A stretch of 64,000 nt of DNA from Bilabrum cf. latius. Its lineage: Eukaryota. The position numbers and the translations under genes are program-made. The stretch covers positions 186,001-250,000 of the forward strand of contig OZ237771.1 in assembly GCA_965178125.1 (NCBI GenBank). The letters are read 5' to 3'. Numbering within the stretch: position 1 is the stretch's first letter; every line of letters begins with the position of its first letter. A model generated the notes under the pieces. That model saw nothing but the letters and a program-made list of their open reading frames with translations, was not told the DNA's origin and did not search any database. Below, piece after piece: positions 1-64,000 of this stretch.

Positions 1-2657
1 GCTCCGACAGCCAGAGTGAGGTTGGGGCCAATCATGGACCCAAAGTCCAACATCGCAACACTGGAGCCAAAGCCGGTGTATGAATCTGTGAACGTTCGGA
101 AGTCCCCGATTGTGTCGTAGATATCTTGCTGCGCCGTAACCCAGCCGCTAGAGTTCAGGTGCAGGATCCAAACCGCCCCGTTTGGATACTAGCTGGACAC
201 TCTAAGTCTGCCACCAACAGCCACAGAAACTGCAGCACCTGGGTGTAACCGACCAAGTGGAGCGATGGAGGTTCCAAATTTTTCTAATCTCAAGCCTTGA
301 GTGATCATGCCGCCGTGAATCCCCGAGATGTTCTGAATGACATCATGTTCGAGGGCTCCGTTAATCGCTAGGATCCAGACAACCCCCTCTGTGAAAAGCA
401 TCTCACTAGGCCGGGCATTGGGTGCACCTATTGCGATCCAAAGAGCGCCTTCAATGCTGCCTAGAAGAGCAACAGATGAGCCAAAAGCCGGGAACCGATT
501 TGAAATTCCAGAATCCTACGCAGGCTCAACAATTCTGACGGATTTCTGCACCGACATGTCCTCTCCCAACGAAATGACGTACACCACACCCTGGCTATTT
601 CGGTCAGCACCGTTTTCCTGAGGTGCTCCTACTGCTATGGTCAAGTTGCTAGCCGGGTCGAGCTGCCCAAGCGAAGCCACAGAGGCCCCAAATCCTAGAG
701 AAGAGCCAAAAGACACTTGGTGATCAGCATGCGAACTCGATATATCCGACCAGTTACTCAAGCTGCCATTTGCGTGAAGATGCAAGAAAAATACACCTCC
801 CCATCTCCCATATCGACTTGCACCAACGGCAAGCGATACAGCCCCTGGTGTGTCTGGGTGCAGCTGGCCAAGCGAGACTAGTGCACAACCAAAATCTTCG
901 GCCGGACGGATCAGAGGCAGCCCGTCTTGACCACCAAGTATGCTGTGATATCTAGCTACTGTACCGTTGGAATGCAGATACAGGAGCCACACAGCATTGC
1001 TGCGCGAAGCCCCGACAGCTACTGCTTGCGCATGGTCATCACCAAGCTTGCCAAGCACCGCGACAGCCGATCCAAAGTCACCTGTTAGTGCTCCATCACC
1101 GTCGAATCCGCGCAGGGAGCTCCCAATGCGAACAGCATCAGGGACGAGTTCCGGCTCGGTTTCAATCTGCTCGATATCGATCCGCCAGAAGGCGCCCATC
1201 TCTACTACCGCCTCGCCGATTGAGTCCTCTGGACTGCCCACCAATAGGGTGTAGTTGCGACCAGACCCTGGGAAGACGGAGAGGGCGTGGCCAAACATGT
1301 TCGAATCACCGATCGCTGGGAAGTAGTTGAAACGGGGTGCGACGAGCTTGGTGCTGCTCATCACGCTCATGTCCGGCCTGAGGCTGAGAAGCCAAACTGC
1401 TCCGGTACCACCAGTCACATCGTTGGGTGGCTAGCCCCCTACGGCAATGTTTAGCGCAGCTCCCGGATCGACTCGCCCAAGATACAATACAGATGTCCCA
1501 AAGTGGTCGAATGCGGAGGAGTCAAGACTGGCTTGCTCAAAGTCAACCATCGGGCCTGTGATAATTGACGATCCGTAGAAAGATAGGTCATGCCGTAAGT
1601 GCACCAAGTGAACTCGCCCGGAAGACCCATGGGATGCATCACCAGGGGCCCCCACTCCGAGGGTCAGTGAAACGTCCAGGCTAACTCGGCTCATGGTCTC
1701 TATGGTCGGGTCAGGAGGTGGAAACGAAGCCAAAGAGGCGCCAAACAACATGCTGTGTTCGATCGAAATGCCGGTCGCTCTCGACAGCAACTCGCTACGA
1801 CGCACAAATCCATTGGATTGCAAGTGAATCAGCCACACAGCACCGTAAAAAATGAGTCGAGCTTTTTCGTGGAAAGGCTCCCCGACCGCGATACTGGCAG
1901 CGACATTTTCATCCGCCGCAATTTGCCCTAGGGACGCAACGGAAGCCCCGAACTGGCCAACTCGCTCCGCACCAAAACGGCCATCCCAACCATCAATTGA
2001 TGTGTGTGAGTTGACCTTTCCTGATGTGCGGATATTCACAATCCAAACCTGGCCACCCCTGTGGCCTGGCGCACCCACTGCGATCATGTTCTCTGCAAAA
2101 TCGCGGAGCCGGCCAATGTGGGCGATCGATGATCCAAAGCGGCTGTTCTCATGCAGAACACCAGTGAATCCCCCATCAGTAGCTCTAACATTTTGGTATG
2201 CACCCACTGAACCGCTGGACTTATTGTGAAATAGAACCCAGAGAGTGCCCTCGTTCGGTTGCCCTTCGCCATCCGCACCGGGAGCTCCGACAACGATTGC
2301 ATCCAAGTCCGGATAAGCCACTGTTTCCGACGCAGAAGGAGTAAATTGGCCCAAGGCAAGAACAGATGCGCCAAAATGGTCCATATCATCAATGTCTGGG
2401 TGGAACTACGTGCCTGTGACTGGTCCAACTTTGGTAGCGCGAGCAGCGAGTTCCAACATATCCACGCACAAGTTTCGGTCGGCCAGGCGCCGGCTCCTGG
2501 CAGATGTGAAATTCACAAAATCATCGTCTCGTTCACTGATGCTGGTAGCGTTTCTAGAAATGGATCCATCTCCATCGAGGTTGACGAGCTAACCATCCAG
2601 TTTGTGTGCAGTGGCTAGGCTACACAGAAAGGTTAAAGTGACAGCAGTGGCCTTCAT
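1..2657 (-). CDS. Secreted FG-GAP (integrin-alpha beta-propeller-like) repeat protein; 3' end runs off the window; needs TAG read as sense
   Basis: ORF-track pieces 1431-2384, 516-1418 and 189-401 share one frame, interrupted only by TAG (2589, 2406, 1431, 516, 189). ATG 2657 gives a signal-peptide-like MKATAVTLTFLCSLATA (alternative ATG 2666); the frame is closed upstream by TGA at 2784-2786. Repeated FG.SVA.LG...AVGAP...G.VW(I/L)L motifs throughout; at least 885 codons. Confidence 0.8.
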
Positions 2658-4219
2658 GGTAAACATGTTGCACTCTTCTGTTCTGTTCTTTGCCGAAATA
2701 TACCTCTGCGAAACATTGTAAATCGAGAGTGCGACTGTTCCTTTTTTGGGGTAGACCGCAGCTTCCACCCCACAACTCCTTAATCAAGACAAAAACCTTG
2801 AATTGAGATACGTTTAAACATCGTAACAATCCACTAGAGTACGACAGACTGTCAAATTTTACCATTGTGGCCTCTGTATACCTGTTCAGACCTACAGTAC
2901 GCAAAGTGCATGCTTTGGTCTCACCAGCTTAACACAATTATGGGGTCGCACAATCCTAAACAAGATAGTCGTAAGCACCTAATACTTATGACTTTATGAC
3001 TTTAGTGGTCTGCAAACGATTTTAACGGCCCAGGGTGTATCCTGGACTACTGACCGGCCTAGATCTGCGACGCCCCGCAATTCTTCCGATAAGTACACAC
3101 AACAAACATTAAAAACCATTATTCTGGTATTCATGGTTGGGGGTTTATTTACGGACATTTCATCGTGTGACCGAAGCGAACGAGAGCATTGATTGGGAAG
3201 AGACTCCGACAGGGAGTGAGCGGGGCTCCAGGGTAGGAACAGATAGGCGCAGGAATTGTATCATTGTGGATCGCGAGGCCAGTTTAAAGAAGATGGTTCA
3301 TTCTGTCCAGCGGCAGCATTTGGAATGGGGGTTGCTAGAATAATGGAGGCTCGTAACACCCACGGATGCCGTCCTCCCAAAGCGATGACTAGATTCGCGC
3401 AGGTAGAGAGGGCGGGATTTCAGGGATTGAAGGGATTGTGGGGGTAATTCGCTTTGACCACCTTTCTTGTCACATGCAAGGTCTAGGTCTTGATATGTGT
3501 GATTGAATTCAATTTAGTTGTACACAGACACGTGGTTAATTCATCCAGCAAATTAGGATCTCCACAGGTTACCGTTGGGATCGCTTCAAGTTGTCGAGGA
3601 GGATTGGCAGCGATTGGCAGGAGGGGTCTGCTTTGCGGTCCGCGCATGCCACGATTGTGGTCCGCTACGGCTGGTCCGTCGACCTCGGAGCACTCGGTGT
3701 TCGGATCGGAAACGTGGACAAGTAGTGCTCCGGTTGGCAGGCATCGCAAGAAGAGGCAGAAGGACCAAACATAGCAGGCTCTGGCGCCCAATGCATCTAT
3801 CGATAGGCTATAGGATCAGAATGCTTGAGCGTGTCGCAATTGTCGCGACATGTATACCTGCTATTCATTATTCACACCGTTGGCATCCTTCCGGCTTGCA
3901 CCTCTTAGGCTGAGGTCGCGCGCTGGGCACAGCGCTCGGGCGAGTCGGCAAGGCGGGTGGTGTGGTGGAGGCGAAGGAAAAAGGGGGTGAGTGCAATGGA
4001 GGACAGGTGGACAAGGTGGAGGGGGTGGATGAAGCGGGAGGCACAGACAGGGCAGGAATGTGGGAAGGGGCGAGTGGGGCCCGGAGGAGTTCCGGGTTAG
4101 ACCTGGTCTCAAAATAATAAACGTGGCGTATGCACCAGAGTGCAAGCAACCCATGCCTGCAAATCACTCGTCCCGTGCACACTGTAGCACGGGGGAGGCA
4201 CATCACTTCACTCCCACGC

Positions 4220-4705
4220 TCATGCACTCTTCTGCGCTGCCGCCTTCATCTCCGCTTCCTCCTCGGCGGCACGATGCCTCTGCCCGGTCCAGGCAGTGCC
4301 CCACAGCGTGGCCCAGCCCAGCGCCAGCAGCACAGCGCACGTGTACAGGTACGCATCAGTGTCCGTTGAGCTCCTGTACGCCTCGAACATGGCCCACCAG
4401 AAGAGTCCAACGAACAGGTACAGGATCAGGAAGAGCACCGTGATGATCAGGAGGTCCGCCGCAGAGTTGCCGCAGCACAGGATCTCGTAGCCTTCGATCT
4501 CCTGGGTCCAGCCAGTCCGCTTGTACTAGTTCTCCGGCTTCTGCTTCTCGGGGAGGATCTGCTGCTCGTACAGCTCGGTGAAGCGCTCGTCCTCGGACCG
4601 CATCAGGGCGGCGTGCTCAGCTGCCTTTCGGCTGGCGTCGGCCTTGGCCTGCTCCGCCTCCTCGTGCTTGGCAGCGGCGGCATCCGCGGAGCTCTTGCCG
4701 GTCAT
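4220..4705 (-). CDS. Small membrane protein (161 aa, two hydrophobic helices, charged N- and C-termini), function unknown
   Basis: ATG 4705 (MTGKSSADAAAAKHEEAEQ...), one in-frame TAG at 4526, then LLIITVLFLILYLFVGLFWWAMF and YLYTCAVLLALGWATLWGTAW, ending at TGA 4220-4222. GC-rich third codon positions. Confidence 0.65.
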
Positions 4706-5885: not shown

Positions 5886-8800
5886 ATGAGTGGGCGTCGG
5901 AAACCAATGAAACCTACTCGTAGTGCATCCAATGAGGCGTCAGATGCAGGCACTAAAATCGATGCTCGGGAGATACCTGGCCTGTAGCAGCTGCAGCAGA
6001 AGTATTCAGACTTAGTTAGACAGAAGAAGACAAAGGAAGCAAGTAAGCTTAAGCGAGAACTTTCTTAGATGCTGGAACACCTAGACAAGGGTACACAGGC
6101 GCAGTCGCCTCGTTCAGGTGAATCCGAACGACAGGCTTCCTCATCGTCTGCAGCAACCAGCAGGCAGCAGGGCCTCTCCGGCGCGGATTCGGCCCATTTT
6201 GCATCCAATGGACACGCGATGACGCAGGACGCCCGCGCCCTCGGCCTGCGATCGAGTGACCGGCCTTTCGCGCTGACCGAGCACGAGCACGCGAGGTGGG
6301 AAGCCATCCACGCCTTTGGACCGGCCGCCACCGCGCACCTCCAGCGGGACGGCTGGTGTGTGACGAGCATTGCGTCGGAAGTGCTCGACGCGCTGGGCTG
6401 GGTGTAGAGGCAGGAGGTGGCACGACGCGGTCCCCTGCTGCACGTGCTGTTCCGGTTATTCGCAAGGGCCACGGTGGAGGTCGCGGCGGGCTGGGGCGGC
6501 GGGTTTATTTCGAGCCCGGACGGCTCGCCAGGGCAGGCATCGCACCAGTTACACTCATCACACGGAAATAGGGTAATCGATCTGGACGATGACGGCGAGC
6601 AGCAGCAGCAGCAGCAGCAGAATCAGAGTAGTCAGCAAGACAGCGAATCAGCTAGGCGCCGCGAATTGCGGAACTTACGAACACGACAAGGTGCCGCTGC
6701 AGCGGCCGGAGCGCTGGTCCGTCGTGTGGCCCCCTTATTTCACTCGTCACACCCACGGGAGTGCCTGCTGCTGGCGGGTGTCCTGGGGGCCAAGCCCGCG
6801 GCCGTGGGCGCCATGCTCCGCCGGGTGGACGGTCTTTTTGATTCCGGATTAACGGCCGCGTCGGCGCTGGAAGGCCTGCGAAAGCTTTAGGCTCCGAATC
6901 CTCGCGCGGCCGGGCAGGGCTTGTGGGGCGGGGTGTCGGGCGACGTCGTTGCAGGTGGGTACGTGCCTGACGCTGTGCGGCTGGGTGTAGGCGCGATGCG
7001 GATGCAGGCCCTTGGGGAACAATCTTCTTGGTTCGACCAGCAGCAGCTGAACACGATGGGGGTCGGCGGGCAGCAGATGTTGGCGGCTTCGCTGCGGTCA
7101 CTCCCTGCCTCGTCCAGGCGAGCAGCGGTATTGGCTAAAGTGGCGGGATTGGCCACCCGCCCCGACAGGTTCACCGTGGAGGAACAGGGGCAGGCGGAAC
7201 GGATCCACTCGTCACATGGGGGTTCGACTCAGCACTCATCACAGGGGGGATACGGGAGGCTAGAGAGCGGCCTGGGTCCGCTGGCTCAGTCCACTGTCGA
7301 TCTCATCGGGGCCGCCGAGAAGGACGGTCCCGGTTCCGCGGACCCACCCTAGTTGAATATGTCCGTTGAGGTCGTTGGTAGCGTTGCGTTAGAGCGAGAC
7401 ACGCCCCCAGCCGCGGCTGTGCGCCTGTGGCAGATGGCAGGCGTGCTGCCCTCCGCTCGTGGGACGGTCCCGTGTGACGAGTGGGACCCTTCCGGGGACC
7501 GAGACGGGCGGGAGCTGGAGGGCGTCGTGGCGGCGCTGGCCGGTCGGATCGTGGTTCCGCTGTCGCGCGGCGCCGCCGCGGGATTCCGCAGGCACTTGCG
7601 TATGCGCGGGTGCACGGCACTGCAGCAGCTGCTGGAAGGAGGCGCCGTTTGCCTCGCCGTTGGACCATCGATCCAGGGAACCATATAGGACGCTGTTCCC
7701 TGGGAACGGGGCTTCTACGGGGTTGGAACCTGGGCTGGGGACTTGTCGGTGCCGCGCCCCATGTCCCCGCTTCCCCCAGGGGAATACCCCCGGTTCGCCC
7801 TCCCCGGGGTTCCCGGAACAGAGCGAAGGTTCCTTGGGGTGGATTCCCTCAGCCCACCCCCCGTCCTCCTTTGGGGAACAACGGCATCTCTGTTCCTGCA
7901 CGCGTCCGGGGGGTGGTTCGATGGCTCCCACAAGCGCATCCGCAGGGAGCGGCAGCGGCTGCACGCCATCAAGCAAGACAGCAGACAGGGGCATGGCCAT
8001 GGGCATGGGCATGGACAGTCAAGCGGTGCGATGGCTGCGGGTCAAGCTCAGTCCAAGAAGATGATTCCGCGCCCAGTGAAGATGATTCCGCACTGGGCGC
8101 CAAAACACCTCCCGCTGCCCATCGACGGTGGCGGGCCCACCGCACTCGTCACAGCGGCTTGCTCGTCAACTGACGCAATCGTCACACCGTAGGAGGCGTT
8201 GGATTTTTATAAAGAGGCGGCTCCACTGATGCCACCAGTGCGCTCCCCGCATGCTGTGTTCTCGGAAGCCATGGATCGGGAGGCTGTCAGATACCACGAT
8301 GTGCAGAGGGAAATGAGCAGGGTGTAGGGGGGGAATAGAGGCAGGGGAGAAGGAGGGGGGCGGGGAAGTGGAGGGGATGCCGACTCCCAGTCTGGTAGCC
8401 AAGAGCCGATTCCGCCGATCGAACTCAACAAACACATATCGACCGCCATCAGCAAGATGTTCAGCCTGACGATAAAACAGGCAGACGGTGCCGGCTTAGA
8501 GGCGCTGAGGGTCGTTCGGAAGCAAGCATTGTCGGGTCGTTTCGCGAAATCCATGAGCTCCGGTGCGGGATACGTCGAGCCGGGGAACAGGCACGATCTA
8601 GCACTCCGGAACCACTCGTCACACCGAATGCAGCTGGTACTGGGTGTTGCGGCAGCGGTACGACAGGAGCTGGGATGGATCGGGCTCGCACTGGCCGTGG
8701 ATCACGTGCACTGCGCGAGGCTTCTGGCGCCGCGCACTGGCAGCGGAACCAAGGCGGGGCATGGGGAGGGTGCAGCGAGCGCCGAGGGTGCTCACTCGTC

Positions 8801-14378: not shown

Positions 14379-14752
14379 GCTGGACCGCGTGAAAGCCATG
14401 GAAACGATCGGCAGCCACACTTGAACACAGGCATTCACCCTTCGTAGGCAAGGCTATCCTCTACATACTTGATTCAATCAACCTAATAATCTCATGAACG
14501 TATGTAAGCTTCGTTATTGAGGGCACATTTGTGAAACTTCGATGACATTCCAATATTCCGATACCACTCTGGTTTCGACCCGTGATCACGTGTTGATGAT
14601 ATTAGATCATTGAAATGATTATAAATATACGTCTTCAGAGATTTGACCAGCGCGATGACCTGATTTGGTATTGAATACCGCGTATATTAGGCCGAGATCG
14701 TAGTTGTTGCTAAAAGTGTCGGCCCAGACTGCTGTAGTTCTACGAATTCTGT

Positions 14753-35676: not shown

Positions 35677-35710
35677 GCGGTTGAGCATCGTAACACAACC
35701 TTAAGTTATC

Positions 35711-51431: not shown

Positions 51432-51464
51432 ATCGAAAAACCATCCAATCGACTAGAGATTATC

Positions 51465-53150
51465 TTACTTGCATCTCGGAAGCCAGTTGAAGGTGTTCGG
51501 AGCCGCCTCTCCTACAATGTTTTCGTTCCCCAGGAGGCAATGCGCTGTGAGGTTCGGATCCATGCTCGGGCTTGTCGGGTCCTATGGCTCTTGGGGTGCC
51601 AGCTGCAGGAACGCGATCGACTCTGTGTTTCGCTCTGCAAGGAACCCAACCACAATGCTGGTACGATTAGGGTGGGCGGTCCCATGCAACACATCCACAG
51701 CGATCATGTACTATTGTGCAGGCATGAGCCCGAAGAGTCCAGGCGACAGCACGGTCAGCTTTACTGCATCTTTCACCGGCTCCGTCATTGAGCCATCGTT
51801 CATGTAAAGCAGGAACAATGCGCCAGAATCCAACCCACCGACATTCGAAAACGGCGCTGATACAATAGCGTCAGCGATTCCGTCAAAGTCAAGATCTCCA
51901 GCTGGGATAATGAATTCGCCAAAGGCTGAGTTGGGTTCTACTTGTCCGGAGGGTACCCCGCCCACGCCGTCGTAAATGGCGACCGGTCCCACTAGCGAGA
52001 TGCCTTCGCTTGAAAGTTGGACTAGCCCGACACCATTGATACCATCTAGGTGCAAATGCAGAAGCAATCCAGTCGAATGGTCGTAGCCCTACAGAGGCAA
52101 ACTGGCAATTCCACCCCCGACCAAGTCTTGTAATGCCGCTGCTTGAAAAGTGGGACTGTCGAATCCCTCGCCTGCCGCCTGGCTCAGTCGGATTGTGTTC
52201 CTGACAGTGTCGTCACCGCGCATGAAGAGGATGAAAATAGCCCCTCGACCAGGGCCTAAGGGCGCGAGCTATGGGGCTCGCACTGCAACATCTTCAAATC
52301 CATCAAGGTCAAGGTCGCTGGTGGTGCATATTGATCCACCGAACTCTCCAGACCGGCCCAGCGTGCCTGATGGCAGCCCGCCTTGACCGTCCCCAATGAT
52401 CGTGCTGTTGGCTACTGTGCCGTTTGGACGCAGACGAAGGATCATCACCACACCTCTGTACTCTATACCAAACCTATCGCAATTCGGACAGCCCACCAGC
52501 AGACGCACCATTCCAGGCTGGTCTCCCATTGGCTGCAGCAGAGCGGAGAGCGACGTACCAAGGGCATCATAGGGAGACCGGTTGATTGGAATCCCATCTT
52601 CGTTGCTTGAAAGCTTTGTTACGCCCAGAGCCGTGCCACCTTGCTGCATCCGGATCACCCAGATCGCCCCCGTGTCTTCTCCAGCGGCGCTGTCGTCACC
52701 CGGCGCACCCACCGCTAGGTCAGGGGCGCCGTTCCCGTCGATGTCGTAGATGCTCGTCGCAGCAAAACCAAAAGTGTCCGTTGCGCTGATTGAGCTAGTA
52801 TCTAAATTTCCTTGGCCGGCACCAAGCATCGCCACTGCATCTATTGGCGGCTTCCCACTAGGCCGGGGAGCTGGCGGTGCCTGTAGCTCGCGATTGTTCC
52901 GGTCCGTCCGCGGATCCAATGATTCCAATGGAAACTTGATTGTCGCCAGTGTGTCTTGATTAATATTTCTTTCGGAATACGCTTGCTCTTTCTTTTCTAG
53001 GAAGGCGGTATAGTCTACTTGGCTTGTACGTAACAGCTCTACATGATGTACACATGTTGGATGGAAGCCTGCGGACAACTTGAAGCACAAAGAATCAAAT
53101 GGTAGCCAATTCATGCCGAGATTTATCACTTCATTGTAATTATAAATCAT
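51465..53150 (-). pseudogene. Third, more diverged and 3'-truncated paralogue of the receptor N-terminus (FG-GAP repeats only, ~560 codons)
   Basis: One frame with TAGs at 52269, 52089, 51711, 51582. Aligns to copy A ~15008-16550; similarity fades at ~51520 and the frame ends at TAA 51465-51467, next to the duplication breakpoint. Could be a short expressed gene. Confidence 0.7.
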
Positions 53151-53699
53151 AGCCGTACTTGGTACTCATGCTGTACAATTGAAAAGCGAGATATGCACGG
53201 TAGCATTAATCGCATACATCCGCGTCCTCACCCTGACAAGCATCGCCACTGCCACCGTGTCTTCCAGCGTGTGCACACAGTAAATTACTGGATAAATACA
53301 TGCTAAGACCCACTACTGCAATGTCATGGAGTATATCAAACAATGCGCAGCATAGCGTTTCGGCGCCTTTCTCAGTATTGTCGCACTGCCATCTCCGAGG
53401 GCCGCATTTTCACGTCGTCATATTCGTAGTCAATACAATAATTATTATAAATGAATCAATGAGCCATGGAACCGGGCATTTAATCTGGGCGCCGCATAGT
53501 CTAGAGCTTCTTGCACCTTGAGCGCACTTCGCGATGTGAAGCTGGTCAATAGTTCCCTTGACTGTTGGTCTCACACACGGCAATGCCCCTATCGAACATG
53601 GTTTGTTATCTTTGCCAGTTATTTTGCAAGACCCTTAGATTTATACCTCTGGGTGAAGTGGGGAAGCGGGACGTTTCGATTGGTTCCGACCGGCCTGTG

Positions 53700-54294: not shown

Positions 54295-57200
54295 TCACGG
54301 CAGCGGGCCCCGTCGCTTGCCCCCACCCTCCTGTGCCCCCATCGTGTCTGCAAGCGTCGGCCGCAGCCAGGGATGGGCCCTCGCCTGTTCCGCACTGAGC
54401 CTCCTCAAAGGGTCCCGCTGCAGCAGACCGCCGATCAGATCGATGGCATCGGGGCTCACACCGTCCCAGGCCTCCGGCTCGAAGAGCACGTCTCTCGAGA
54501 GGCAGCGGCTGGCGGGCTCGAACGGGAGGAAGCCCGCAAGCAACTCGAATAGAATCACGCCCAGGGCCCAGCAGTCCACGGCAGTGCCGTACGGTTTCTG
54601 AGCCAGCACCTCGGGAGCGATGTAGCCCTGGGTCCCAGTCATGGCCTCGAAAGGAACAAGCCCTACGTCCCCAGTCACCTTGTAGTACCGGGCGTCCCGC
54701 GACCGCCTGGCATGGCCAAAGTCGCACAGTTTGACCACGTCGTACACGCCCAGGAGCCCCGCGCCCCGCTTGCCCAGACGCTCCACGGACAGCAGCACGT
54801 TCTCTGGCTTGAGATCGCCGTGGAGAACCTTCTTCTCGCCGTGGAGGTAAGCCAGTGCCTCGAGCAGCTGGTCGGCGACTCGCTTGGCCTGCCTCTCGCT
54901 CAGGAAGCCCTGGCGAGTGCGGCCCGGCATGGCGGGCATGGGGTAGCCATACCCGCTCGACAGAGCGGTGGATACCGAAGCAGTGCTAGCCCCAACCCCT
55001 CCTGACGCGCTCCGCATCGGGCTGATGTTTGACCCGGGGATAGAGGGGCTCTCAGCGCCCAACGCGGATACTCCACCGGTAGCTGCAGGCTGTGCCGCGG
55101 CACTCTGTTTCTTTTTCTGCTGCGCTTTGGCCGCCTCTCTCTCCCTAGCTGCCTGCCTGTACTGCCGCCTCAACTTGCCCTGTCGGATCCCCTCCTCCCT
55201 CATGTACGCCTGGAGGGTGCCGCCTGTGACGCACTCCATGACTAGGAAAAGATACTCTGAATTCTCAAAGGCGTCCCAGCAGCGGACGATATGCCTATGT
55301 CTCATGGCCCTTGACAGCTGCACTTCCCTGGCTACGCAGGCGCGATCCTCGGCAGTCTGCAGGTAGGCTTTCCGGATGCACTTGACCGCAACCTGCTGCT
55401 GGTGTCCCCCTCGATGGCCGTGGTGGCTGTGGTGGTGGTGTGCGGCAGCAGATGGCCTCGTTTTTCCGCCGGCGTGGCTCGAACCGGAGATCGACCTGCC
55501 CTTGCGACCAGCAGACGCATACGACTGGGATTTCCTGGTCCCAACCTGCACCTTGGCGTAACCTCCGTCACCGAGTGTCTTGCCCAGCTCGAAATAGTCT
55601 TCCAGCTTCCTCCTGCCTGCCCCATCGCTCGTGTCAGGCAGAGCCTTCCATTCAGTGGAGGATGACGAGGAGCTGTTTTTCTTGGGCTGCCGCGTCGCTT
55701 TTGGGACTGATGCCGACCGTTCCTGTCCATCGTCAGCACCGGAACCAGCTGCACCATCGTGCCGTGCACCGTCAGCTGCAGACAAGTTCCTGGCCGCAAA
55801 TTCCTGCCACTCCTTGCCGAGGAGGGAGGGGGCGGTATGGCGCGGAGGCGGCTCGCTTTCGATTCCGAATCCAAGGTGAGGCGGCGGGTCGGTGCCCTGG
55901 GTACCGCGAGCCGCTACCCGCTTCACGGGCGAGTCTGGAATCCCGTGCACATCGCGGCCGGCAACGCCGCCATCGAATCTCCCAGGGATGTACAGGCCGG
56001 TGACAGCCGTCGAGGAACTTTCGACCGAGGCACCACGCTGCATTTCGGTAAGCTCCGATACATCAGGAGAAGCATCGTGCTGTTCCGGCGGCTGGTTCCG
56101 TCGGTGCCCTGCTCCGATCGTTGTGAGGCTGCCGAATGTAGATGCCTCACCCCGTGCACCACCCACAGAATCGCCGCGATCTGGCGGCCGGTCGAGGCTT
56201 GAGTCGGGCCGTGCGATACGTTGGCCTGCACGTTCTTGAAGTCCACTGGAATACTTGCCGTCGTCATCGCCGAAGGGCCCTTCCCCAGCGCTGCCAATGC
56301 CCGCCCCTACGTCGCTGCCACCTGCCCGCATCGCACGCCCAATGAGGTATGGCCTTGGGGTCTCCATCCCTCCTCTATCCCCAGTGGCAGAGCCCTCCTC
56401 CACACCCATCCATAGAGCCGTTGAGCCAGAGGCAGCCGTGGCACCATCGTCGCCCGACCCGGGTCCGGTGCTCTGTCCGCTCCGCTGACCGGGCCGTCGG
56501 ATCCTCATCCGATCATCGATCCGATCATCGATCCGATCATTGATCCGATCCTTGGAGGAGGCCCTGCCCCGGGCGAACGCCATCAGCTCGCCCACAGGTG
56601 ACCCTGGGGAAGCGCTCCTGCGCCCATCGCTGGCGAGCTCGCCTCTGGGCGTGGGCGGGTGCACGTCGAAGTGACCATCGTCATCGTCGTCGTCGTCATC
56701 ATCGTTGTCGTCTTCAATATCGTCATCATCGACATCTTCATCCCTTCCTCCCTCGGGGCCTGAGCCATCGCTGGCGCTGCTTGCACTGGCATATCGGTCT
56801 GCCTTCTTGGTCCTGCGCCAGGCGCTGCTCCCCGCCCTTGAGGAACCGTGATACTCGCTAGCCTCGGCTGAATCCACCGATGGATTGGTTCCTACCCGGT
56901 CGCGACCCGACCCCGGAGTCTGACCATGCCCGGCCAATCTGTCACCGGCCCTGCGATCAGACCCGCGAGGGAGGTCCAGAGCCAATCCACCTTCCAAATC
57001 ATGCCGTTCTCGCGGGTCCATCCCGCGCTGGACATCGCGACTTTCAGCATCAGTCGTCCCACCGCCGGCTTGTTGCTCTTCCATGTCCAGCCCGCTGCTG
57101 TAGTGGTTCGGTTCCGTCTCCGTTTCGTCTTCCTCTGTCTCACCCGTTGGACCTAGGCTAGCCCCGTGCGGAACACGCCAGCGACCCGCCCTTCCGCCGC

Positions 57201-60200
57201 GCCCCTCGGGCACGATTGAGATTGAGATGTCGGCCTCATCGGAGGCGACTGGACGGCCATCGGCTGGCACTAGTGCAGGTCCCGGCCCCTGCCGGTCGTC
57301 GATACCGGCCTGAATCTGAAGGACACCGCCCCTTCCACCGTGCCTTCCGGTCTTGCGTGTCACGTTGCGGCCTCCTCTGACGCCTGCACGCGCGTGAGCT
57401 TGGCCTGCACTGCTGGTGTCTGAAGAGGCCGAGGGCGACATGCCGCCGCTCTCCGTCGTGTCATCCAGTCCAGAGGGCGATTCAGATGCCCCGGCATGAC
57501 GAACAGAGTGCGGGTGCTGTGAGCCCTTGACCAGCATCGACGGTTCTTTAGTACCCTAGGCACCCTCTGTGCCCTCCCCTTGCTGTAGTGGCGGTGCTTG
57601 GTCCCGGTCCAGCGGCATCCCTTCCTCGTCGACCAGCACCCAATCGGGGCGCTGCTGATGATGCACTGCATGGTGGTGGTGGTGCACTGCATGGTGGTGA
57701 TGCCCGGCAGCTGCCAGCCTGGTGCCAGGGCTGGGCCGCACCTGCCAGCTGGGCGATAGCTCGGTGTCACGCAGCACGGAGGGAGTGTGATCCACGTCAG
57801 CCGGGTCACCATGAAGCGGCCCTGTGTTGACAGGCTCAGATGATTCGGCAGGGGCCTCTGTTCCAGCAACACGAGCCTCTGACCCTGTAGGGGAGGGGTT
57901 GAGCATCAGTTCGGGCATCGAAGCTGATTGCGGCTAGCCATGTCTTGATGTCGCTGACACCGATGTTGACAGTTCCAGGGCAGCAGATGGGGCAGATGGG
58001 TCATGGTCGTGGGTGCTCCCAGCTCGATTCCGTGGCAGGCTCCCTGTGAGTGTGGGTGCCAGCATGGGGGAGACTGTGGGCAGATTGCCGCGGCTCCTGA
58101 CCTCCGGCGCGGTGGCATCGGCGAGTCCAGTCGAGACAGGTGCATTGCCTTGCATTGCACCATCTGCAGGTATTCGCTCTGCGGATGCACTCTGGGTCGT
58201 GTTATCGTTCTGGACTTCCACGCGTCCATCAGGCGCATCTTTAGCAGCAGGCGGTGCGGCGTGGGTGAAGCCCCCTTCAGCTTGGGAGCTCGCTGACGCC
58301 TGCTCACCGGTGGGGTCCCGACTAGCCTATGCCTGGTCGGTGTGACGAGTGATCCGGTCACGCCTAGGTCCCATGGTCGGGGACTCGTCTTGCCCCTTGC
58401 CAGTGCCGTGACGAGTGCGATCGGACGGTGGGGGGCGAGTGTCAGACCCGATCGAGTGCATCCTGGTGCGACGAGACCGGCTGCGGCTGCCGCTGTGACC
58501 GCTGTGACGAGTGCTAGACCTCCGTCCGGAGCCGCTGCGGCTGGGCGAGTGGTGCTGCCCGTGGCTCTTCACGCGCCGGTGCGCCTCTGTCCGGCCGCCG
58601 TGGTGCTGGTGCCTCGAGCGACCTCCCCTTGATCTGTGGTGCGCACCATCGTGCGATGCACCACGAGTGACTCCTGGGTCTTGCCTAGTACCCTTATTCT
58701 TGCCTTTGATCGTCTGGCGCTTGTGACTGCTGCTATGCCCCCCGTCCATCAGGAAAGCCGGCCTGTCCACGGCATGCTTCATCTTCCCGTCCACCTTGCT
58801 GTACCGCCCCTCGCCCGTCGGTCCACCAGCCCCTGCAGCGCCTGGCGACCTACCCGTACCATCGGCCCCGGCGTTGAGATACATCACGGCTCTGAATCGC
58901 TCGCTGCCTCCACCGGCGCCGTAGTAAATGTACTGCTGCTTGGGTGCCGGCCTGCGACTCCGCTGCGTGCGGGAAGTACTGACACCTTGGTGCGCCTGGG
59001 AGGGAGGGTCCATTGGTGCTGACGGGAACCGTGCGGCGTCCATGCCTTGGGGCCACTACTAGTGTGACGAGTAGAATCCTGCGGGCCCTCCCATCGCGCT
59101 GCCGATGTGTTCTCCTGGCACGACGCCGAGTGCACTCGCTGCTCCATGCACTGTTGATGGACCGTCGCCAGGACTGGCTGGCAGCGTAAGTCCGTGAGCA
59201 GTCCGGTCGTTCTCCGGGTCTAGATCCAGTCCAGCGGTAGGCCAGTGTGACGAGTGCTGCCATGGAAACAGCCTGGTCTTCGAGTGTCTCTGTTCGATGA
59301 GATCCGCGATGTCGCGCGATGAATCAGTAGAACCCGGGGCAATGCCGCTGTAGCCGTCCAAACCAGCCAAAGCGGTGGACCCCGGCAACATGCCGCCGCT
59401 AGATCCGGCTTCGATTCCAACGGATATGACCGGATCGCTGCCTAGCATGCTGCTCTGCATGCCTGCGCTATCCCACCCAACTCCGCCTGGGAGCAGCCTG
59501 GAGCCATGGGAGTCGCTTGGCGCATGTTCCGCAAACATGCGCGGCGCCGATGCGAGGGCACTCGTAGTGGGCGGCACCATCCCGTGGAGACTTCCGGGAT
59601 AGCCAGCCGTTGCGGGGTCAGTCGATGCATCTCCTAATCCACCGGTGGATTGCTGGGTCATTGTCCTCATGGGGACACTCCCTGCAGAGCCGCTCGGGCC
59701 ACCGTGCGGCACACCTTGGCCGGGCATATCGCCTGTGAGCTGCGGCGAGGCAGGGCCGTGAGGGGGACTGAGGGTTTGGCCATTCACTCGATCCGCTGGC
59801 TGACGGGTTTGGCCACCCCCACTCATGACGCCCCACTGCATGGCCATGGGTAGCAGCCTCGGATGCTTGGTTCTGATCCTCTGCATCAGGGATCCAATTC
59901 TGGACTGCGTGAATGCGTGGGGGACGCCGGCCAGCTCGGCTGCCCGAAGAGCCTCAAGCTGCTGAAGCAGCTGCCTCTCCCTGTGACTCAACCGATAGTT
60001 CTTGCTAGAGACGCTCCCTGATCTCTTGCGATGCGCACCGGCATTCGGTACGCTGTGCAGGTCTCCAGCCCCTGTGGTTCTCGCCCTTGCCATTGCAGGG
60101 GATTCTGTGCCCCCAAGCGCGGCGCCAGAATCAGCAGCATGCAAGCCCCCGGCGGCAGAAGCACCTGTTCTACCATAAGTGTCGCGACTACCAGATTGTT

Positions 60201-63200
60201 GTCCGCTGGACAATATCTTGCTCCCAAGTGCGCTCCGATCGGATGCCTCACGCCTGCTAGCCAGGGTGGAAAGGACGGTATCAGAAGCGGACTTGGGAAT
60301 CATCCCGCGGCTAGTTACCAGGGGCTAGGGTCTATCCCCGGCGATGTGAGCCACCCTGATTGCGGTTGGATCTGGCAGCGGCCCGGGGTCTTCGGAGGCT
60401 GTCATCGCCGTCTAGGCGGCTGCAGCCTGCGGCGCGCTGCTGCCATCAGTAGACCGTGCACCGCTATTGGCAGGGGCTTGCGGGAGGCCCAGAGTCAGGT
60501 TCATTGGACTGCCAGGGGGCAGAATCACCTGGTGACGCAGTAGTTGCGCGGCGCCTCCTCCGTATCTCCTGGTTCCGTAACCGGTCGAACCTGCAAGGCT
60601 GCCGCTGGTCGACTTGCCGATCGCACTGGTCACACCCGAAACGCCTGGGGCGATCCAGCTGGCAGCCCCAGAAGCGGATACCGTGTGAATGGCTGCCATT
60701 CCGCGTTGCAGACTGCCGTCAGGTACCGGCTGCAGAGAGCCTTGAACATCCCCTGGCGGCAGCTTAGGGCCCCCTTCCAATACGGACGAATGCTGCGCGC
60801 TGCTTCCGTGCGGATCATTGACCATGGCTTGCGTTGATAGTCCGAGGGGTGCGATGTCCAGACCGGAACTAGATGCAGCCCCAGATGTGGCTGACCTTCC
60901 ACGGTACCAGCCGGCCCTTCCGGTGGCCCTTGCCACTGCATCAGTTCCATGCTGGACTTTGGACTCCTCGTCTTGGATGGGAACAGCAGCAGGATACAAA
61001 AAGCCCTGGAGACGCTGCTCTGTCGGTTGCAACCCCTTGCCTAAGCTCACTACAACTGTAGAGAAAGCCAGGGGTGGACGGGGTGGCCGGGCTTCATTCC
61101 AATGCGGAGACGCTGCCATCGCGGCCGATGAGCTCGCGCTTGAATGCATTCCACGGTACTAGGCCTTCGATTCCGAGTCATCCCCTCCCGCTTCAGACGA
61201 AACCGACAGTATCCGCAAATCGGAGAACCTTGTCGCTCGAGAGCCGACTTGTGTCCAGACCTGAAGCGGGCGGACTGGGTCGCTGCCGGTCGCCCTCTTC
61301 TCGCGCCGAGTGGTACCAGCGTGCGCGCGCTCACTACCGCCAGCCACACCCCGCCCACCACGGCGCCGCGGTTGGGTGAAAGAGTCTTCTCCGCCCCGTG
61401 CTGTGCGTGACCCCGCCGTGAACTGGCTCCGGCCGCGATGTCGCCTCCTGCGATGCCGCCTCGATCTCGACCGACTCCGCTCTTCAAGACGAGTCTCGCC
61501 TTCCGAGCCGCTGTCTCCGCTCTTGCGGTGATCAGGCGACCCACGTGATGATGACCGGTCAACATGTGACCCACGAGTGGATTGTCGCTGGCTCGATCGA
61601 TCGTCCGGTGCACCTCCACCACCGCCCCTGTGTTCATCAACTCGGCCACCGTGGTCACCGTGGCGAGCGCGATAGGCGGCAAGAGCACTCTTGCGCCCAT
61701 ACCCACCGGTCGGTGGCACTAATGGCGAGATTGGCGAGTCGATATCTTGCTGCACGTTCTTAGCGTCTTGTGGGTTACCATCGGAATTGGCAGCTGCTGC
61801 AGCCGGAGCGGAGTAGCTTGGCACCGTTGGCCTCCTGTCGTCACCCACAGCACCGGTGGATTCCGGTGAAATGAATTCCCACCTTGACCTGGTCGTGGGG
61901 CGCGGGCTGTTCTAAGCGTCTGTTTGTTTCATACGTGCTTGGCCACCTCCGACGCCGTCGCTACTGCCGCTGCTTTGCCCACCCTCCTCGTCTTCGTCGT
62001 CCTCGTCGCCGTGTGCTTCAATCGCTGCCAGCAGCACATCCGGCGAGCTCATGCTGTTCAGCAAAGGTGCACCACCATGCAATGCACCCGTCGAGGAGAG
62101 ATCTCTGGGAGCCAGATGTGACCTGCCCGTCGATGAGGATGCGTTCGCGCCCGGTCTAGCTGCTCCTGATTTAGATGGCGAAGAGAGCCGGCCGGATGCA
62201 TTCCAGACTATGGCGTTCACGCTGCTTGGGCTGCCCATGGTGGAACCGCGCCGGCGCCGCGCAATACCAGGCGAGCCACCTAGTTCCGCAAGGGGAGATT
62301 GCACCTACCCGACTGGAGCGGTCATGCGGCGGGTTCCGCGGGGACCAGCGAACGTTCCCTGTCGGACACGCCCCCACGGGCTTGTGATCGCAGGAAGTTG
62401 CATGCTGGTGGTATCCCGTGCACCGCCGTGCAGTGCATCAGGCTTCGGTAACGTGCCATCGCTTCCGTTGCCATCCGAGCCGCTGCCTCCGGAAACGCCT
62501 GGGGAATCCCGCGTAGTCCCCGATACGGTGTCAGCGCCAGCCCTAGCTAGAGGTGCTACCGGCCGGGACAGCAGCTGCTGGGTGATGTCAGCTTGCTCCG
62601 CGGAAGGGGGAATCCTGCTCATGCTCATGGCCCTGCGAGACAGCATTCCGACCCGCACGATTCCGGACCTGGACGCCGGCGACCACAGCGAAGGGGACCC
62701 ATCAACGGGTATTGAACCCCGGAGGCCCGGAGAACCAGGATGCAAAACGGACTGGGGTCGGGATGCGTCTAGCTGCAGCGCAGGCGTCGAGCCAGCACGC
62801 AGAAATGGCGAATCCACCCGTGGAGTTCGCACTATCGCAGCCTGGTTCGGCGTGGTCTCGCCCGCGCTGCTCCCGCTCCCAGGGCCACTATCCCTGGAAA
62901 GAGCTGGTGCAAGTGCACCAGTGACTCGATCGAATTTCGAGGCATGCGCAAAAGCAATGGGAGTCGCAGCATCGCTGCCATCGGTGGTGCTTGAAGCGTC
63001 GGAGACCGAGTCCAGAGCTGCTTGTTTCTCTTCATCATCATTGTTCCCGTTAATTGGTATGGTCTTTCCCTGCTCCCTCCCTTGTCGTCCTGCATTAAAG
63101 CGACTCACGTGACCCTCTGGAGAACTGGGCTCGCCGCTCCCTGATTTGGCGTCATCACTGCCTGCACTTGCACTTGCACTTGCACTTGCATTCAATTGGG

Positions 63201-64000
63201 CTATCCCTCGGCGGCCGTGCGTCAATGATCCCGAAGCTGGTATCCTGCCCTTGCCTTGCTGATGCCTGTTGCTGGCGTGCCTAGTAGGACTCAGCCCGTG
63301 GCGTTCGCTGCTGCCGGCTTCTTGGTGCCTGAGTGCCTGCCTTCTATTACCCTTCCCGCTACCTCCGCTGCGAGTAATCATCCCAGCACCACTGGTGGCC
63401 TGTCGGTCCCGTCCAGGGTAAGGGGAAGGCTCGGAGGAGGACTCGGAGTCGGAAAGCGAGCCGTCGGTGTCGTCTGGTTCTCTGGCGTACAGAGGGGTTG
63501 GGGGTGCACCGCCATGCATTGCACCCCGTCCCTGCGAGTTGGCTCGTCGGGAGATGCCGCGGCTATGGCCACCCTAGTTCCTCATCGTGCCCTTGCCCTT
63601 GCCCCTGCCTTCGTCCCTGCCCCTGCCCCTGCCCCTGCTGCTTCTGCTTCTGCGTGTCTTCGATGCCCACACGTCCGCATCTAGCCCTCTCTTCAGATCC
63701 ACAGGCAGCGGCCTGGATGATAGGTGGTGAAGGGAGGAATACAGCCCAGGGCTCGTGTGGAAGTTGCCGGTGTGCGGGTTATGGCGGATGGCTCTCGCGC
63801 GCCAGTACTCCACCGAGCTCATCACCTAGCCGCGGAAGAACCGCCAGTGCGCAGAACCGTCCGGTGGGGCGTGGTGAAAGGTGCCGATCAGTCCGTTGCG
63901 GCAATTGAGAAACTGCGATGGTGGGCAAAGCGGGAGGTGGGCAAGCCGACAGGAGTGGCGCATTGGGAATCCATAGATGTGCTCCACTATGGGAAGATGC
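54295..64000 (-). CDS. Very large (>3,230 aa) mostly low-complexity protein with C-terminal CAMK-group-like Ser/Thr kinase domain; 5' end lies beyond the window; needs TAG read as sense
   Basis: Ten ORF-track pieces in one frame, separated only by 12 TAGs (63826, 63574, 62305, 61912, 61159, 60412, 60325, 59059, 59056, 58327, 57934, 57556); TGA 54295-54297. Kinase motifs LGDGGYAKV, VAVK, REV, LVMECVTGGTL, HGDLKPEN, DFG, GTQGYIAPE, DCWALGV at ~54360-55600. Confidence 0.85.

What the first reader, a model, noticed from the sequence alone, without database searches (positions are those of the whole stretch)
1..64000. Non-standard nuclear genetic code: TAG is a sense codon (most likely Gln) in every gene of the window
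Seen: six unrelated genes plus paralogues (FG-GAP, small TM, TAF5-like, PQQ-like, PKD1-like, kinase) each collapse into one long frame of up to 13.4 kb when TAG is read through. By hand count there are about 65 in-frame TAGs, no internal TAA/TGA and no frameshifts in the intact genes. 12 TAG positions are retained in both receptor copies, copy B gained an in-frame TAG-GCC insertion (46897-46902), and the kinase gene has a tandem TAG-TAG (59056-59061, YSSH**WPQG). Domains continue across TAGs (DLTGDG*KELIIG at 17687; signal peptides lie upstream of TAGs). Known: UAG=Gln with UAA/UGA stops corresponds to NCBI table 15 and is reported for the fornicate Iotanema spirale. Inference: this GC-rich protist has its own reassignment, which may be undescribed for its lineage.
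Basis: partly seen in the sequence, partly recalled or inferred. Interest (0 to 1): 0.96.

Follow-up and report, generated by a model that had tools for sequence, protein, structure and literature searches.

The report
TAG read as an amino acid
In this GC-rich protist chromosome piece every gene carries in-frame TAG codons while TAA and TGA occur only at gene ends, so the organism almost certainly reads TAG as an amino acid (probably glutamine), a rare kind of nuclear genetic-code change.

Summary
Ten reading frames (16,733 codons) carry 67 in-frame TAG. They have no internal TAA (about 52 expected from off-frame rates) and no internal TGA (about 352 expected). All nine frame ends seen are TGA (8) or TAA (1). 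RNA-like contigs from two further studies are colinear with the DNA and keep the TAGs. They also show two GT..AG introns whose removal creates a signal peptide. A Cafeteria-like protein of 1,816 residues matches both ends of the 9.7-kb kinase frame, which spans 12 TAGs. TAG is therefore a sense codon. TAA and TGA behave as stops.

The amino acid is not settled. Paralogue comparisons put Gln and Glu ahead and speak against Leu, Tyr and Trp. Ser fails only on the paralogue evidence. Gln is my best guess, at about 0.6.

The nearest named relative of the kinase is the stramenopile Cafeteria, at 40% identity. Nine text searches found no nuclear UAG reassignment reported for stramenopiles. No tRNA or eRF1 gene lies in the window, and no genome was held. 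This is a new member of a known kind, the UAG-only codes.

The parts
3..2666 (-). FG-GAP-like repeat protein gene. ATG at 2666-2664, signal-peptide-like start; the 3' end runs off the window. 5 in-frame TAG, with first bases at 2591, 2408, 1433, 518 and 191.
   Evidence: Homologue alignments continue in frame across the TAGs. No RNA-like cover in runs X5-X7.
4220..4705 (-). Small transmembrane protein gene of 161 codons, ending in TGA. 1 in-frame TAG at 4528-4526.
   Evidence: RNA-like contigs of X5, X6 and X7 cover the TAG with 0 other letters, at depths 76-317.
5886..11576 (+). WD40-repeat protein gene of 1896 codons, ending in TGA. 10 in-frame TAG at 5985, 6066, 6405, 6888, 7350, 7686, 8190, 8325, 10149 and 10662.
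   Evidence: Pfam WD40, residues 1238-1418. X5 contigs 5685-8298 and 8384-11619 are colinear with 0 differences and cover 9 of the 10 TAGs.
11782..13941 (+). PQQ-like beta-propeller membrane protein gene with a signal peptide, ending in TGA. 5 in-frame TAG at 11887, 12406, 13642, 13771 and 13819.
   Evidence: Pfam PQQ_2. RNA-like contigs of X5, X6 and X7 cover 11887 and 12406; X6 and X7 cover 13819; X6 covers 13771.
14494..28168 (+). Giant receptor gene, copy A, with FG-GAP repeats, Ser/Pro/Thr-rich 36-bp repeats, a GPS motif and transmembrane segments. ATG at 14494; introns at 14504-14765 and about 14850-15008. 15 coding TAG; ends in TGA.
   Evidence: Pfam FG-GAP and GPS. Spliced GT..AG joints in X5 and X7. 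The spliced frame gives MNVCARLLVVVVVPNLIVEA.... TAG list.
39178..49525 (-). Receptor copy B, N-terminal part, in inverted orientation; 94% amino-acid identity to A. Mirrored ATG at 49525 and the same two introns. 8 coding TAG, including the TAG-GCC insertion at 46902-46897.
28454..32311 (-). Receptor copy B, C-terminal part; 93% identity to the end of A. 5 in-frame TAG, all shared with A. A's TAG at 26648 is CAG here.
32312..39177 (.). 6.9-kb repeat-rich insert that splits receptor copy B. It holds a 112-bp satellite of 27.6 copies (35712-38798) and 107-bp repeats (33821-34409, 35223-35678). No protein family was found.
50137..51189 (-). Fragment paralogous to the 3' part of the PQQ-like gene. 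2 in-frame TAG (50823, 50400). One is shared; the other is GAG in the full gene.
51465..53165 (-). Truncated third paralogue (C) of the receptor N-terminus; 66% identity to A. 4 in-frame TAG (52271, 52091, 51713, 51584); ends in TAA.
   Evidence: Pfam FG-GAP.
54295..63963 (-). Ser/Thr kinase gene of about 3222 codons, with a conserved N-terminal domain, a long disordered middle and a C-terminal CAMK-like kinase domain. 12 in-frame TAG including the tandem pair at 59061-59056; ends in TGA.
   Evidence: Pfam Pkinase. P0216 (1816 aa) matches both the N-terminal domain (E 1e-18) and the kinase domain (E 3e-88)..

Best explanation
The window comes from the nuclear genome of a GC-rich, intron-poor protist. 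Its nearest named relative for one gene is the stramenopile Cafeteria. In this organism UAG has been reassigned from stop to sense, while UAA and UGA still terminate. This is a UAG-only code of the NCBI table 15 type.

Shown:
- TAG is frequent inside long coding frames (0.4% of codons), and TAA and TGA are absent from them.
- Homology continues across TAGs.
- RNA-like contigs keep the TAGs unedited and unspliced.

Inferred from what is established for other reassigned codes (Panek et al. 2017):
- UAG is decoded by a dedicated tRNA with anticodon CUA. Its C34 cannot pair with UAA, which explains why UAA stays a stop.
- eRF1 has lost efficient UAG recognition.

The inserted amino acid is most likely glutamine. 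My odds for Gln are about 0.6. My odds that TAG is sense at all are about 0.93.
For: 1; 67 in-frame TAG in 16,733 codons of ten frames, against 0 internal TAA (about 52 expected) and 0 internal TGA (about 352 expected). Ends are 8 TGA and 1 TAA.
2; only TAG read-through lengthens the frames. Codons in frames of 900 or more rise from 4,515 to 17,396, against 5,633 for TAA and 7,600 for TGA. The maximum stays 2013 for TAA and TGA.
3; a Cafeteria-like protein without stops (P0216) aligns to residues 22-94 (48% identity, E 1e-18) and to residues 2797-3212 (41% identity) of the same kinase frame. It brackets 11 of the 12 TAGs, and TAG58 lies inside the N-terminal match.
4. FG-GAP homologues align on both sides of TAGs in one frame.
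5; run X1 has uniform depth of about 52 (DNA). X5, X6 and X7 have gene-wise uneven depth (0 over 1-3170; 15-319 elsewhere). X5 and X7 carry spliced GT..AG joints that X1 lacks. X5 contigs cover 9 of the 10 TAGs of the WD40 gene with 0 differences.
6; removing the two introns gives an in-frame ATG and a signal peptide.
7; 12 TAG are conserved between receptor copies.
8. For Gln: TAG pairs with CAG once and CAA once among 9 well-aligned paralogue mismatches. All 4 single-base partners are first-position changes (CAG, GAG twice, AAG). None is TCG, TTG, TAY or TGG.
9. In the internal motif DGxGG[IL]P, x is Gln in 3 of the 4 other repeats of copy A (the fourth is Leu). The TAG sits at x in the third repeat.
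10. BLOSUM62 sums: Q 13, E 11, K 5, S -3, L -15, Y -10, W -23.
11. If C-to-T damage had made TAG from CAG, TAA from the 201 CAA codons would be expected too. None is seen.
Against: - No tRNA gene lies in the window, no eRF1 gene is present, and no genome was available. The mechanism is therefore untested.
- The RNA nature of X5-X7 is the tool's guess. It calls X5 'probably DNA'. I infer RNA from the depth profile and the spliced joints.
- Gln is not separated from Glu. The difference is 2 half-bits on paralogues. When the 7 nearest outside homologues are added, the sums are E 14, Q 12 and S 8.
- In those homologues TAG faces Ser 3 times, and Glu, Asp, Leu and Thr once each. It never faces Gln.
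- The orthologous site of the DGxGG motif in paralogue C is Val.
- None of the TAGs lies in a strongly conserved domain column. There are none in the kinase or WD40 Pfam matches.
- Nine terminators are too few to show that TAG never terminates.
Confidence: 0.6

Rival explanations
1. TAG is a sense codon but stands for another amino acid. Glutamate comes first. Serine (as reported for Scotinosphaera), lysine, histidine or asparagine are less likely.
For:: Glu is within 2 half-bits of Gln on the paralogue evidence, and ahead of it (14 against 12) when the 7 nearest outside homologues are added. TAG pairs with GAG twice among the 9 paralogue mismatches. TAG faces Ser in P0216 and twice in P0364, and Glu in P0345. 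The empirical column likelihood over 16 sites ties H, R, E, Q, Y, N, S and P. UAG=Glu and UAG=Ser have precedents (passages of PMC11687900).
Against: TAG pairs with CAG or CAA in 2 well-aligned cases, plus 1 poorly aligned case. No TCG, AGY or TCN partner was seen among the 9. Gln is the consensus at the one repeat-motif site. Ser scores -3 on paralogues. By the literature read, Gln is the commonest meaning of reassigned UAG.
Confidence: 0.3
2. TAG has two meanings. It is sense inside genes but still terminates in some contexts, such as near 3' ends, as in the context-dependent codes of some ciliates and Blastocrithidia.
For: The PQQ-like gene has a TAG (13642) right after its transmembrane segment. 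It is followed by a low-complexity Gly/Pro/Gln tail of about 100 codons with two more TAGs. The paralogue fragment keeps that TAG but is frameshifted after it. From the off-frame rates, I calculate by hand that a stop-free tail of that length has a chance of about 0.25. Only 9 terminators were seen.
Against: 0 of the 9 frame ends seen is TAG. Up to 15 TAG lie inside one gene, far from its end. A tandem TAG-TAG lies mid-gene.
Confidence: 0.06
3. There is no recoding. On this view the TAGs are assembly or sequencing errors, DNA damage, pseudogene lesions, sites of U-to-C RNA editing, or lie in introns.
For: One TAG (14735, with its copy at 49284) does lie in an intron. Copy B and the fragments at 50137-53165 look like damaged paralogues.
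Against: Errors or decay would also give TAA, TGA and frameshifts. None is seen in 16,733 codons. The same TAGs occur in contigs of four laid runs from three studies. RNA-like contigs are colinear and keep T at 9 of the 10 WD40 TAGs, and at the small-TM and PQQ TAGs. Twelve TAGs are conserved between diverged copies.
Confidence: 0.03

Closest known systems
Iotanema spirale (Fornicata) nuclear code: UAG = Gln, with UAA and UGA as stops (Panek et al. 2017, PMC5304391; abstract and passages read)
   Same: Only UAG is reassigned; UAA and UGA terminate. Gln is the favoured meaning here too. The predicted mechanism (tRNA with anticodon CUA plus altered eRF1) is the one I infer.
   Different: The best named match of the one gene with a named relative is a stramenopile, not a fornicate. 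Gln is not demonstrated here. Neither eRF1 nor a tRNA could be inspected. The Iotanema evidence was transcriptomic, whereas this is genomic DNA with introns.
Rhizarian exLh nuclear code: UAG = Leu (PMC5304391)
   Same: UAG-only reassignment with UAA and UGA as stops.
   Different: Leu is disfavoured here: -15 against +13 half-bits on paralogues and -11.3 against -3.5 in the column likelihood. No TAG pairs with TTG or CTN among the 9 mismatches.
UAG-only reassignments in phyllopharyngean ciliates and Protocruzia (Gln, Leu), and Scotinosphaera (UAG = Ser) (McGowan et al. 2024, PMC11687900; passages read)
   Same: UAG is uncoupled from UAA. These are independent origins of the same kind of change.
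   Different: Judging from general knowledge of ciliate genomes rather than from any call, this 60% GC, 64-kb contiguous locus with giant genes does not look like a gene-sized ciliate chromosome. Ser is not supported by the paralogue evidence but is not excluded.
UAR = Gln codes (NCBI table 6 type: many ciliates, ulvophyte algae, hexamitid diplomonads, Streblomastix, Amoeboaphelidium; list from the PMC11687900 passage)
   Same: A stop is reassigned, probably to Gln.
   Different: Here TAA is excluded from frames: 0 seen against about 52 expected from off-frame rates, or about 28 if TAA/CAA matched TAG/CAG (the ratio figure is my arithmetic). One frame ends in TAA.
Code 15 in crAss-like and Lak phages (TAG = Gln; PMC9523058 abstract seen in the listing)
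   Same: Same codon, and the same meaning is proposed.
   Different: Those are bacteriophage genomes. This locus has spliceosomal introns, a GPS-motif receptor and a eukaryotic kinase orthologue.

Membership tests
UAG-only nuclear code (UAG sense; UAA and UGA stop) | In-frame UAG inside bona fide coding sequences, far above chance and specific to UAG | tested here: met
   67 TAG against 0 TAA and 0 TGA in 16,733 codons. Specificity control. Homology across TAGs.
UAG-only nuclear code (UAG sense; UAA and UGA stop) | UAG is present in the mature mRNA, neither edited nor spliced out | tested here: met
   Colinear RNA-like contigs with 0 differences cover 9 of the 10 WD40 TAGs, the small-TM TAG and PQQ TAGs. 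The same runs show spliced introns elsewhere. Caveat: that these runs are RNA is inferred, not on record.
UAG-only nuclear code (UAG sense; UAA and UGA stop) | UAA and UGA keep working as terminators | tested here: met
   No internal TAA or TGA. Frame ends are 8 TGA and 1 TAA. The one TAA end belongs to a truncated paralogue.
UAG-only nuclear code (UAG sense; UAA and UGA stop) | UAG is no longer used as a terminator | tested here: inconclusive
   0 of 9 ends is TAG, which is too few. The TAG at 13642 could be a stop.
NCBI table 15 type (UAG = Gln) | UAG positions correspond to Gln in homologues | tested here: inconclusive
   Paralogues: Q 13, E 11 half-bits. With the nearest outside homologues: E 14, Q 12, S 8. 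Motif site consensus is Gln. No TAG lies in a strongly conserved column.
NCBI table 15 type (UAG = Gln) | A tRNA-Gln with anticodon CUA | not testable with these tools
   No tRNA gene in the window, no Rfam match, no genome held.
NCBI table 15 type (UAG = Gln) | eRF1 domain 1 altered at the GTS, NIKS, YxCxxxF, E55, S70 or L69 positions | not testable with these tools
   No eRF1 gene in the window and no genome held. The motif list comes from the PMC5304391 passage.
UAG = Leu code (rhizarian exLh type) | UAG positions correspond to Leu or other hydrophobic residues | tested here: not met
   L scores -15 on paralogues. L, I, V, F and W are disfavoured in the column likelihood.
UAG = Ser code (Scotinosphaera type) | UAG positions correspond to Ser | tested here: inconclusive
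   No Ser-codon partner among the 9 paralogue mismatches (S = -3). However, TAG faces Ser in 3 of the 7 nearest outside homologue sites.
Stramenopile (Bigyra/bicosoecid-related) nuclear genome | Orthologues closest to stramenopile proteins; an rRNA or multi-gene phylogeny | tested here: inconclusive
   For one gene only, the best named hit is Cafeteria roenbergensis: 40% identity over 95% of the kinase query, with shared inserts. A Cafeteria-like metagenome protein shares the N-terminal domain. The window holds no rRNA, and the other genes gave no eukaryotic orthologue.

The most novel reading that the evidence does not exclude
This may be an independent UAG-only stop-to-sense reassignment in the nuclear genome of a stramenopile (Bigyra-like) flagellate. 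That would be the first nuclear genetic-code change reported for stramenopiles. It would also be a GC-rich, culturable-looking system, with DNA and RNA data from several studies, in which the uncoupling of UAG from UAA can be studied. The inserted residue might turn out not to be glutamine.
Probability: 0.4. Interest if true: 0.8.

Novelty: new member of a known kind. Interest (0 to 1): 0.7.

Why it matters
Nuclear code changes are rare. Changes in which UAG and UAA part ways are rarer still. The passages I read name only these lineages: a rhizarian, Iotanema, Scotinosphaera, Protocruzia and some phyllopharyngean ciliates.

A further independent case in a different supergroup would add a data point on why UAG can be captured alone. 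It comes from a GC-rich genome where TAG is easily made from CAG, and both DNA and RNA-like data are already public. It would give a system for finding the tRNA(CUA) and the eRF1 change responsible.

There is also a practical point. Any standard-code annotation of this organism will cut its genes at every TAG. The protein collections searched here seem to hold only fragments of this gene family. One example is the 204-residue P0275.

Tried and rejected
- Whole genome: none is held. No Codetta-type analysis, tRNA search or eRF1 check was therefore possible.
- tRNA and Rfam scans of the window found nothing.
- Sequencing runs: no holder is listed as RNA on record. X5-X7 are 'RNA?' guesses.
- A joint at 11312>11426 (113 nt, X6 only, depth 4) has no GT..AG at any allowed offset. 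I did not accept it as an intron.
- FG-GAP homologues are mostly planctomycete-like bacterial proteins at 30-40% identity. TAG sites fall in variable loops. The column likelihood only separates polar from hydrophobic residues, and the nearest-homologue residues are scattered.
- The WD40 gene found only WD40-domain hits and no orthologue across TAG sites.
- The metagenome scan with P0361 returned 52 distant FG-GAP loci, the best at 38% identity in its best segment. It did not return P0361's own contig, so I did not use the loci.
- A neighbour-residue context likelihood is dominated by noise, with E, R and G on top. I discarded it.
- The Atlas search of the kinase domain gave generic kinase clusters without useful taxa.
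- Cluster look-ups gave names only for Cafeteria and planctomycete proteins.
- The insert in copy B was searched for a transposon protein that might carry TAG in a conserved domain. It holds only satellite-like repeats.
- BLAST of the other window proteins against all held proteins found only the P0216 N-terminal match.
- Literature: nine searches (plus the passages in 21) found no report of a nuclear UAG reassignment in stramenopiles or bicosoecids. The library lacks most subscription journals, and supplements were not consulted.

Full report
**What is there**

The window is 59.6% G+C, with no tRNA gene and no Rfam match. Under the standard code the longest stop-free frames are 2013, 1416 and 1086 codons. 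When TAG alone is read through they become 4484, 3375, 3234, 1900, 1285 and 927 codons. The maximum stayed at 2013. Codons in frames of 900 or more rose only from 4,515 to 5,633 (TAA) or 7,600 (TGA), against 17,396 for TAG.

I trimmed ten frames to their likely coding parts, 16,733 codons in all. They hold 67 TAG, no internal TAA and no internal TGA. Off-frame trinucleotide rates in the same DNA predict about 52 TAA and about 352 TGA. Nine frame ends are visible, 8 TGA and 1 TAA. This cannot be chance, decay or random error.

C-to-T damage of CAG would also have turned some of the 201 CAA codons into TAA, and none is seen. Several shorter TAG-read-through frames on antisense or non-coding DNA are chance products of GC-rich sequence. 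Examples are 3540-4760, 23884-25452 and 34286-35278. I do not count them as genes.

**The genes**

| Gene | Coordinates (strand) | In-frame TAG |
|---|---|---|
| FG-GAP-like protein | 3-2666 (-) | 5 |
| Small membrane protein | 4220-4705 (-) | 1 |
| WD40 protein | 5886-11576 (+) | 10 |
| PQQ-like propeller membrane protein | 11782-13941 (+) | 5 |
| Receptor copy A (FG-GAP repeats, GPS motif) | 14494-28168 (+) | 15 |
| Receptor copy B, inverted, in two parts | 39178-49525 and 28454-32311 (-) | 8 + 5 |
| Paralogue fragments | 50137-51189 and 51465-53165 (-) | 2 + 4 |
| Kinase gene | 54295-63963 (-) | 12 |

- 12 TAG positions shared by the receptor copies
- the TAG-GCC insertion at 46897-46902
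- the tandem TAG-TAG at 59056-59061
- DLTGDG*KELIIG at 17687

**Evidence that the frames are real single genes**

A metagenome protein of 1,816 residues without stops (P0216) sits in a 90% cluster with P0070, which is identical to its C-terminal 746 residues. Its kinase domain is like that of Cafeteria proteins. It aligns to residues 22-94 of the kinase frame (48% identity, E 1e-18) and to residues 2797-3212 (41% identity, E 3e-88). Its two matches thus lie at the two ends of the frame. Eleven of the 12 TAGs lie between them, and TAG58 lies inside the N-terminal match. FG-GAP homologues also align on both sides of TAGs without a change of frame.

**RNA evidence**

Nine public runs were listed for 5800-14000, eight of which hold part of it. 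None is on record as RNA. I laid four of them on 1-19000.
- X1 has an even depth of about 52 and behaves as DNA.
- X5, X6 and X7 come from two other studies. They have depth 0 over 1-3170 and gene-wise steps elsewhere: about 15 over the WD40 gene, about 100 over the PQQ-like gene, and up to 319 around the small membrane-protein gene (bins 3805-5706).
- X5 and X7 hold joints 14503>14766 and 14848>15008 with GT..AG ends. X1 lacks them.

Removing these two introns joins an ATG at 14494 in frame to the receptor and creates the signal peptide MNVCARLLVVVVVPNLIVEA. I therefore read X5-X7 as cDNA-derived, although the tool itself marks X5 'probably DNA'.

Their contigs are colinear with the genome and keep the TAGs:
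- X5 pieces 5685-8298 and 8384-11619 have 0 other letters and cover 9 of the 10 WD40 TAGs. The tenth, at 8325, falls between the listed pieces.
- Pieces of all three runs cover the TAG at 4526-4528, and those at 11887 and 12406, with 0 other letters.

The output lists only the best rows; 105 differences and 312 pieces were not shown. On the evidence available, U-to-C editing and removal by splicing are excluded for these sites. One TAG (14735, copy at 49284) is intronic and not coding.

**Which amino acid**

No TAG lies in a strongly conserved domain column, and none falls within the kinase or WD40 Pfam matches. The window therefore gives only weak evidence.

- **Paralogues.** Codon alignments of the paralogues give 9 well-aligned mismatches. 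TAG faces CAG, CAA, GAG (twice), AAG, CAT, AAC, GTG and ATG. Two poorly aligned ones face CAA and TGG.
- **Single-base partners.** All four change the first codon position, to Gln, Glu (twice) and Lys. There is no TCG, TTG, TAY or TGG partner. Such partners would be synonymous, and so common, if TAG meant Ser, Leu, Tyr or Trp.
- **Repeat motif.** In the motif DGxGG[IL]P, x is Gln in 3 of the 4 other repeats of copy A, and Leu in the fourth. The TAG sits at x in the third repeat, where paralogue C has Val.
- **BLOSUM62 sums over the 9 mismatches.** Q 13, E 11, K 5, S -3, Y -10, L -15, W -23 half-bits.
- **Outside homologues are less kind to Gln.** TAG58 of the kinase faces Ser in P0216. In the nearest receptor-like proteins TAG faces Ser (twice), Asp, Glu, Leu and Thr. 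Adding these gives E 14, Q 12, S 8.
- **Column likelihood.** An empirical likelihood over 16 sites against 212 homologues only shows that hydrophobic residues, Asp, Gly and Lys fit badly. It ties H, R, E, Q, Y, N, S and P.

I conclude that the residue is polar. Leu, Tyr and Trp are unlikely, and Gln and Glu are level on the data. Gln is the commonest outcome of UAG reassignment in the passages I read. On that basis I put Gln at about 0.6, Glu at about 0.2 and Ser and the rest at about 0.15.

**Which organism**

Spliceosomal introns, a GPS-motif receptor and a CAMK-like kinase make it a eukaryote. The kinase domain's best named match is Cafeteria roenbergensis, at 40% identity over 95% of the query with the same insert positions. 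The next named hits are animal kinases at 35-38% over 43%.

Cafeteria has about 70% G+C, 1.7-1.9 introns per gene, and a non-standard code reported only for its mitochondrion (passages of PMC6972860). The organism here is at best a distant relative. The other genes gave no eukaryotic orthologue. 'Stramenopile, Bigyra-like' is a lead from one gene and not a placement.

**Mechanism**

Shown: UAG is inside translated frames and is kept in RNA-like contigs, while UAA and UGA are excluded from frames and close them.

Inferred from established knowledge summarised by Panek et al. 2017 (passages):
- A tRNA with anticodon CUA reads UAG but not UAA, because C34 mispairs with A.
- eRF1 domain 1 has lost efficient recognition of UAG. 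The precedents are T32G in the GTS motif of Iotanema and L69A in the rhizarian.

Neither gene is in the window, and no genome was held.

It stays open whether TAG still terminates anywhere. None of the 9 ends is TAG. However, the TAG at 13642 follows the membrane segment of the PQQ-like protein and precedes a low-complexity tail, so it could be a stop.

**Comparison and novelty**

UAG-only nuclear codes are known. The passages I read name:
- a rhizarian (Leu)
- Iotanema (Gln)
- Scotinosphaera (Ser)
- Protocruzia and some phyllopharyngean ciliates (Gln, Leu)

This locus is the same kind of change. It differs from UAR=Gln codes because TAA is not sense. It differs from the rhizarian code because Leu fits badly.

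Nine text searches found no nuclear UAG reassignment reported for stramenopiles or bicosoecids (with the passages in 21). The library lacks most subscription journals. The public runs date from 2025, so a description may exist that I could not see. I rate it a new member of a known kind, of real interest to people who study code evolution, with the residue and the taxon still to be fixed.

Noticed in passing
14494-28168 (+) versus 39178-49525 and 28454-32311 (-): The giant receptor gene is present as an inverted duplicate (93-94% amino-acid identity). Copy B is split by a 6.9-kb insert exactly where A reads ...DLPG|TRVFVEQ.... So B is either a disrupted gene or carries a huge intron.
   Followed up: partly
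32312-39177: The insert holds a 112-bp satellite of 27.6 copies (35712-38798; strong A-over-T skew, all three + frames open) flanked by 107-bp repeats (33821-34409, 35223-35678). About 100 codons of the B' junction sequence are repeated near 33007-33529. No protein family matched.
   Followed up: partly
14504-14765 and about 14850-15008 (mirrored at 49515-49254 and 49157-48999): Two canonical GT..AG introns sit at the very 5' end of the receptor genes. The start codon and 3 further coding bases lie in exon 1, and the signal peptide is assembled by splicing. Otherwise the genes in the stretch laid look intron-free.
   Followed up: yes
11312-11426: One low-depth contig of run X6 skips 113 nt near the 3' end of the WD40 gene, without GT..AG ends. 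X5 covers the stretch unspliced. It may be an assembly artefact or a deletion variant.
   Followed up: partly
all coding TAGs (list): In the non-redundant genes, 13 of 52 TAG codons (25%) follow a glycine codon. The figure is 8-15% for every ordinary residue. It could be a mutational context or a decoding-context preference; it is unexplained.
   Followed up: no
19339-19658 and 44019-44662: The 36-bp repeat coding SPSTSPTPSVSS-like units has 8.9 copies in receptor copy A and 17.9 in copy B. The Ser/Pro/Thr-rich stalk thus changes length quickly.
   Followed up: no
50137-53165 (-): This is a mosaic of truncated paralogues: the receptor N-terminus, then the 3' part of the PQQ-like gene. It still has no in-frame TAA or TGA but has 6 TAG. 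The PQQ fragment is frameshifted after its conserved TAG.
   Followed up: partly
4041-5350: The small membrane-protein gene region has the deepest RNA-like cover in the laid stretch (up to 319 in X5). The protein found no homologue among the proteins held, and it was not searched against the large collections.
   Followed up: no
63963-63720 (-), kinase residues 22-94: A short conserved N-terminal domain (no Pfam match) is shared with a Cafeteria-like metagenome protein (48% identity). It sits more than 2,700 residues upstream of the kinase domain.
   Followed up: partly
15125-19393 (+) and 3-2666 (-): The best matches of the FG-GAP regions are long planctomycete-type bacterial repeat proteins (30-40% identity), not eukaryotic integrins. 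A few short eukaryote-like fragments (P0275, P0361, P0364) are closer.
   Followed up: no
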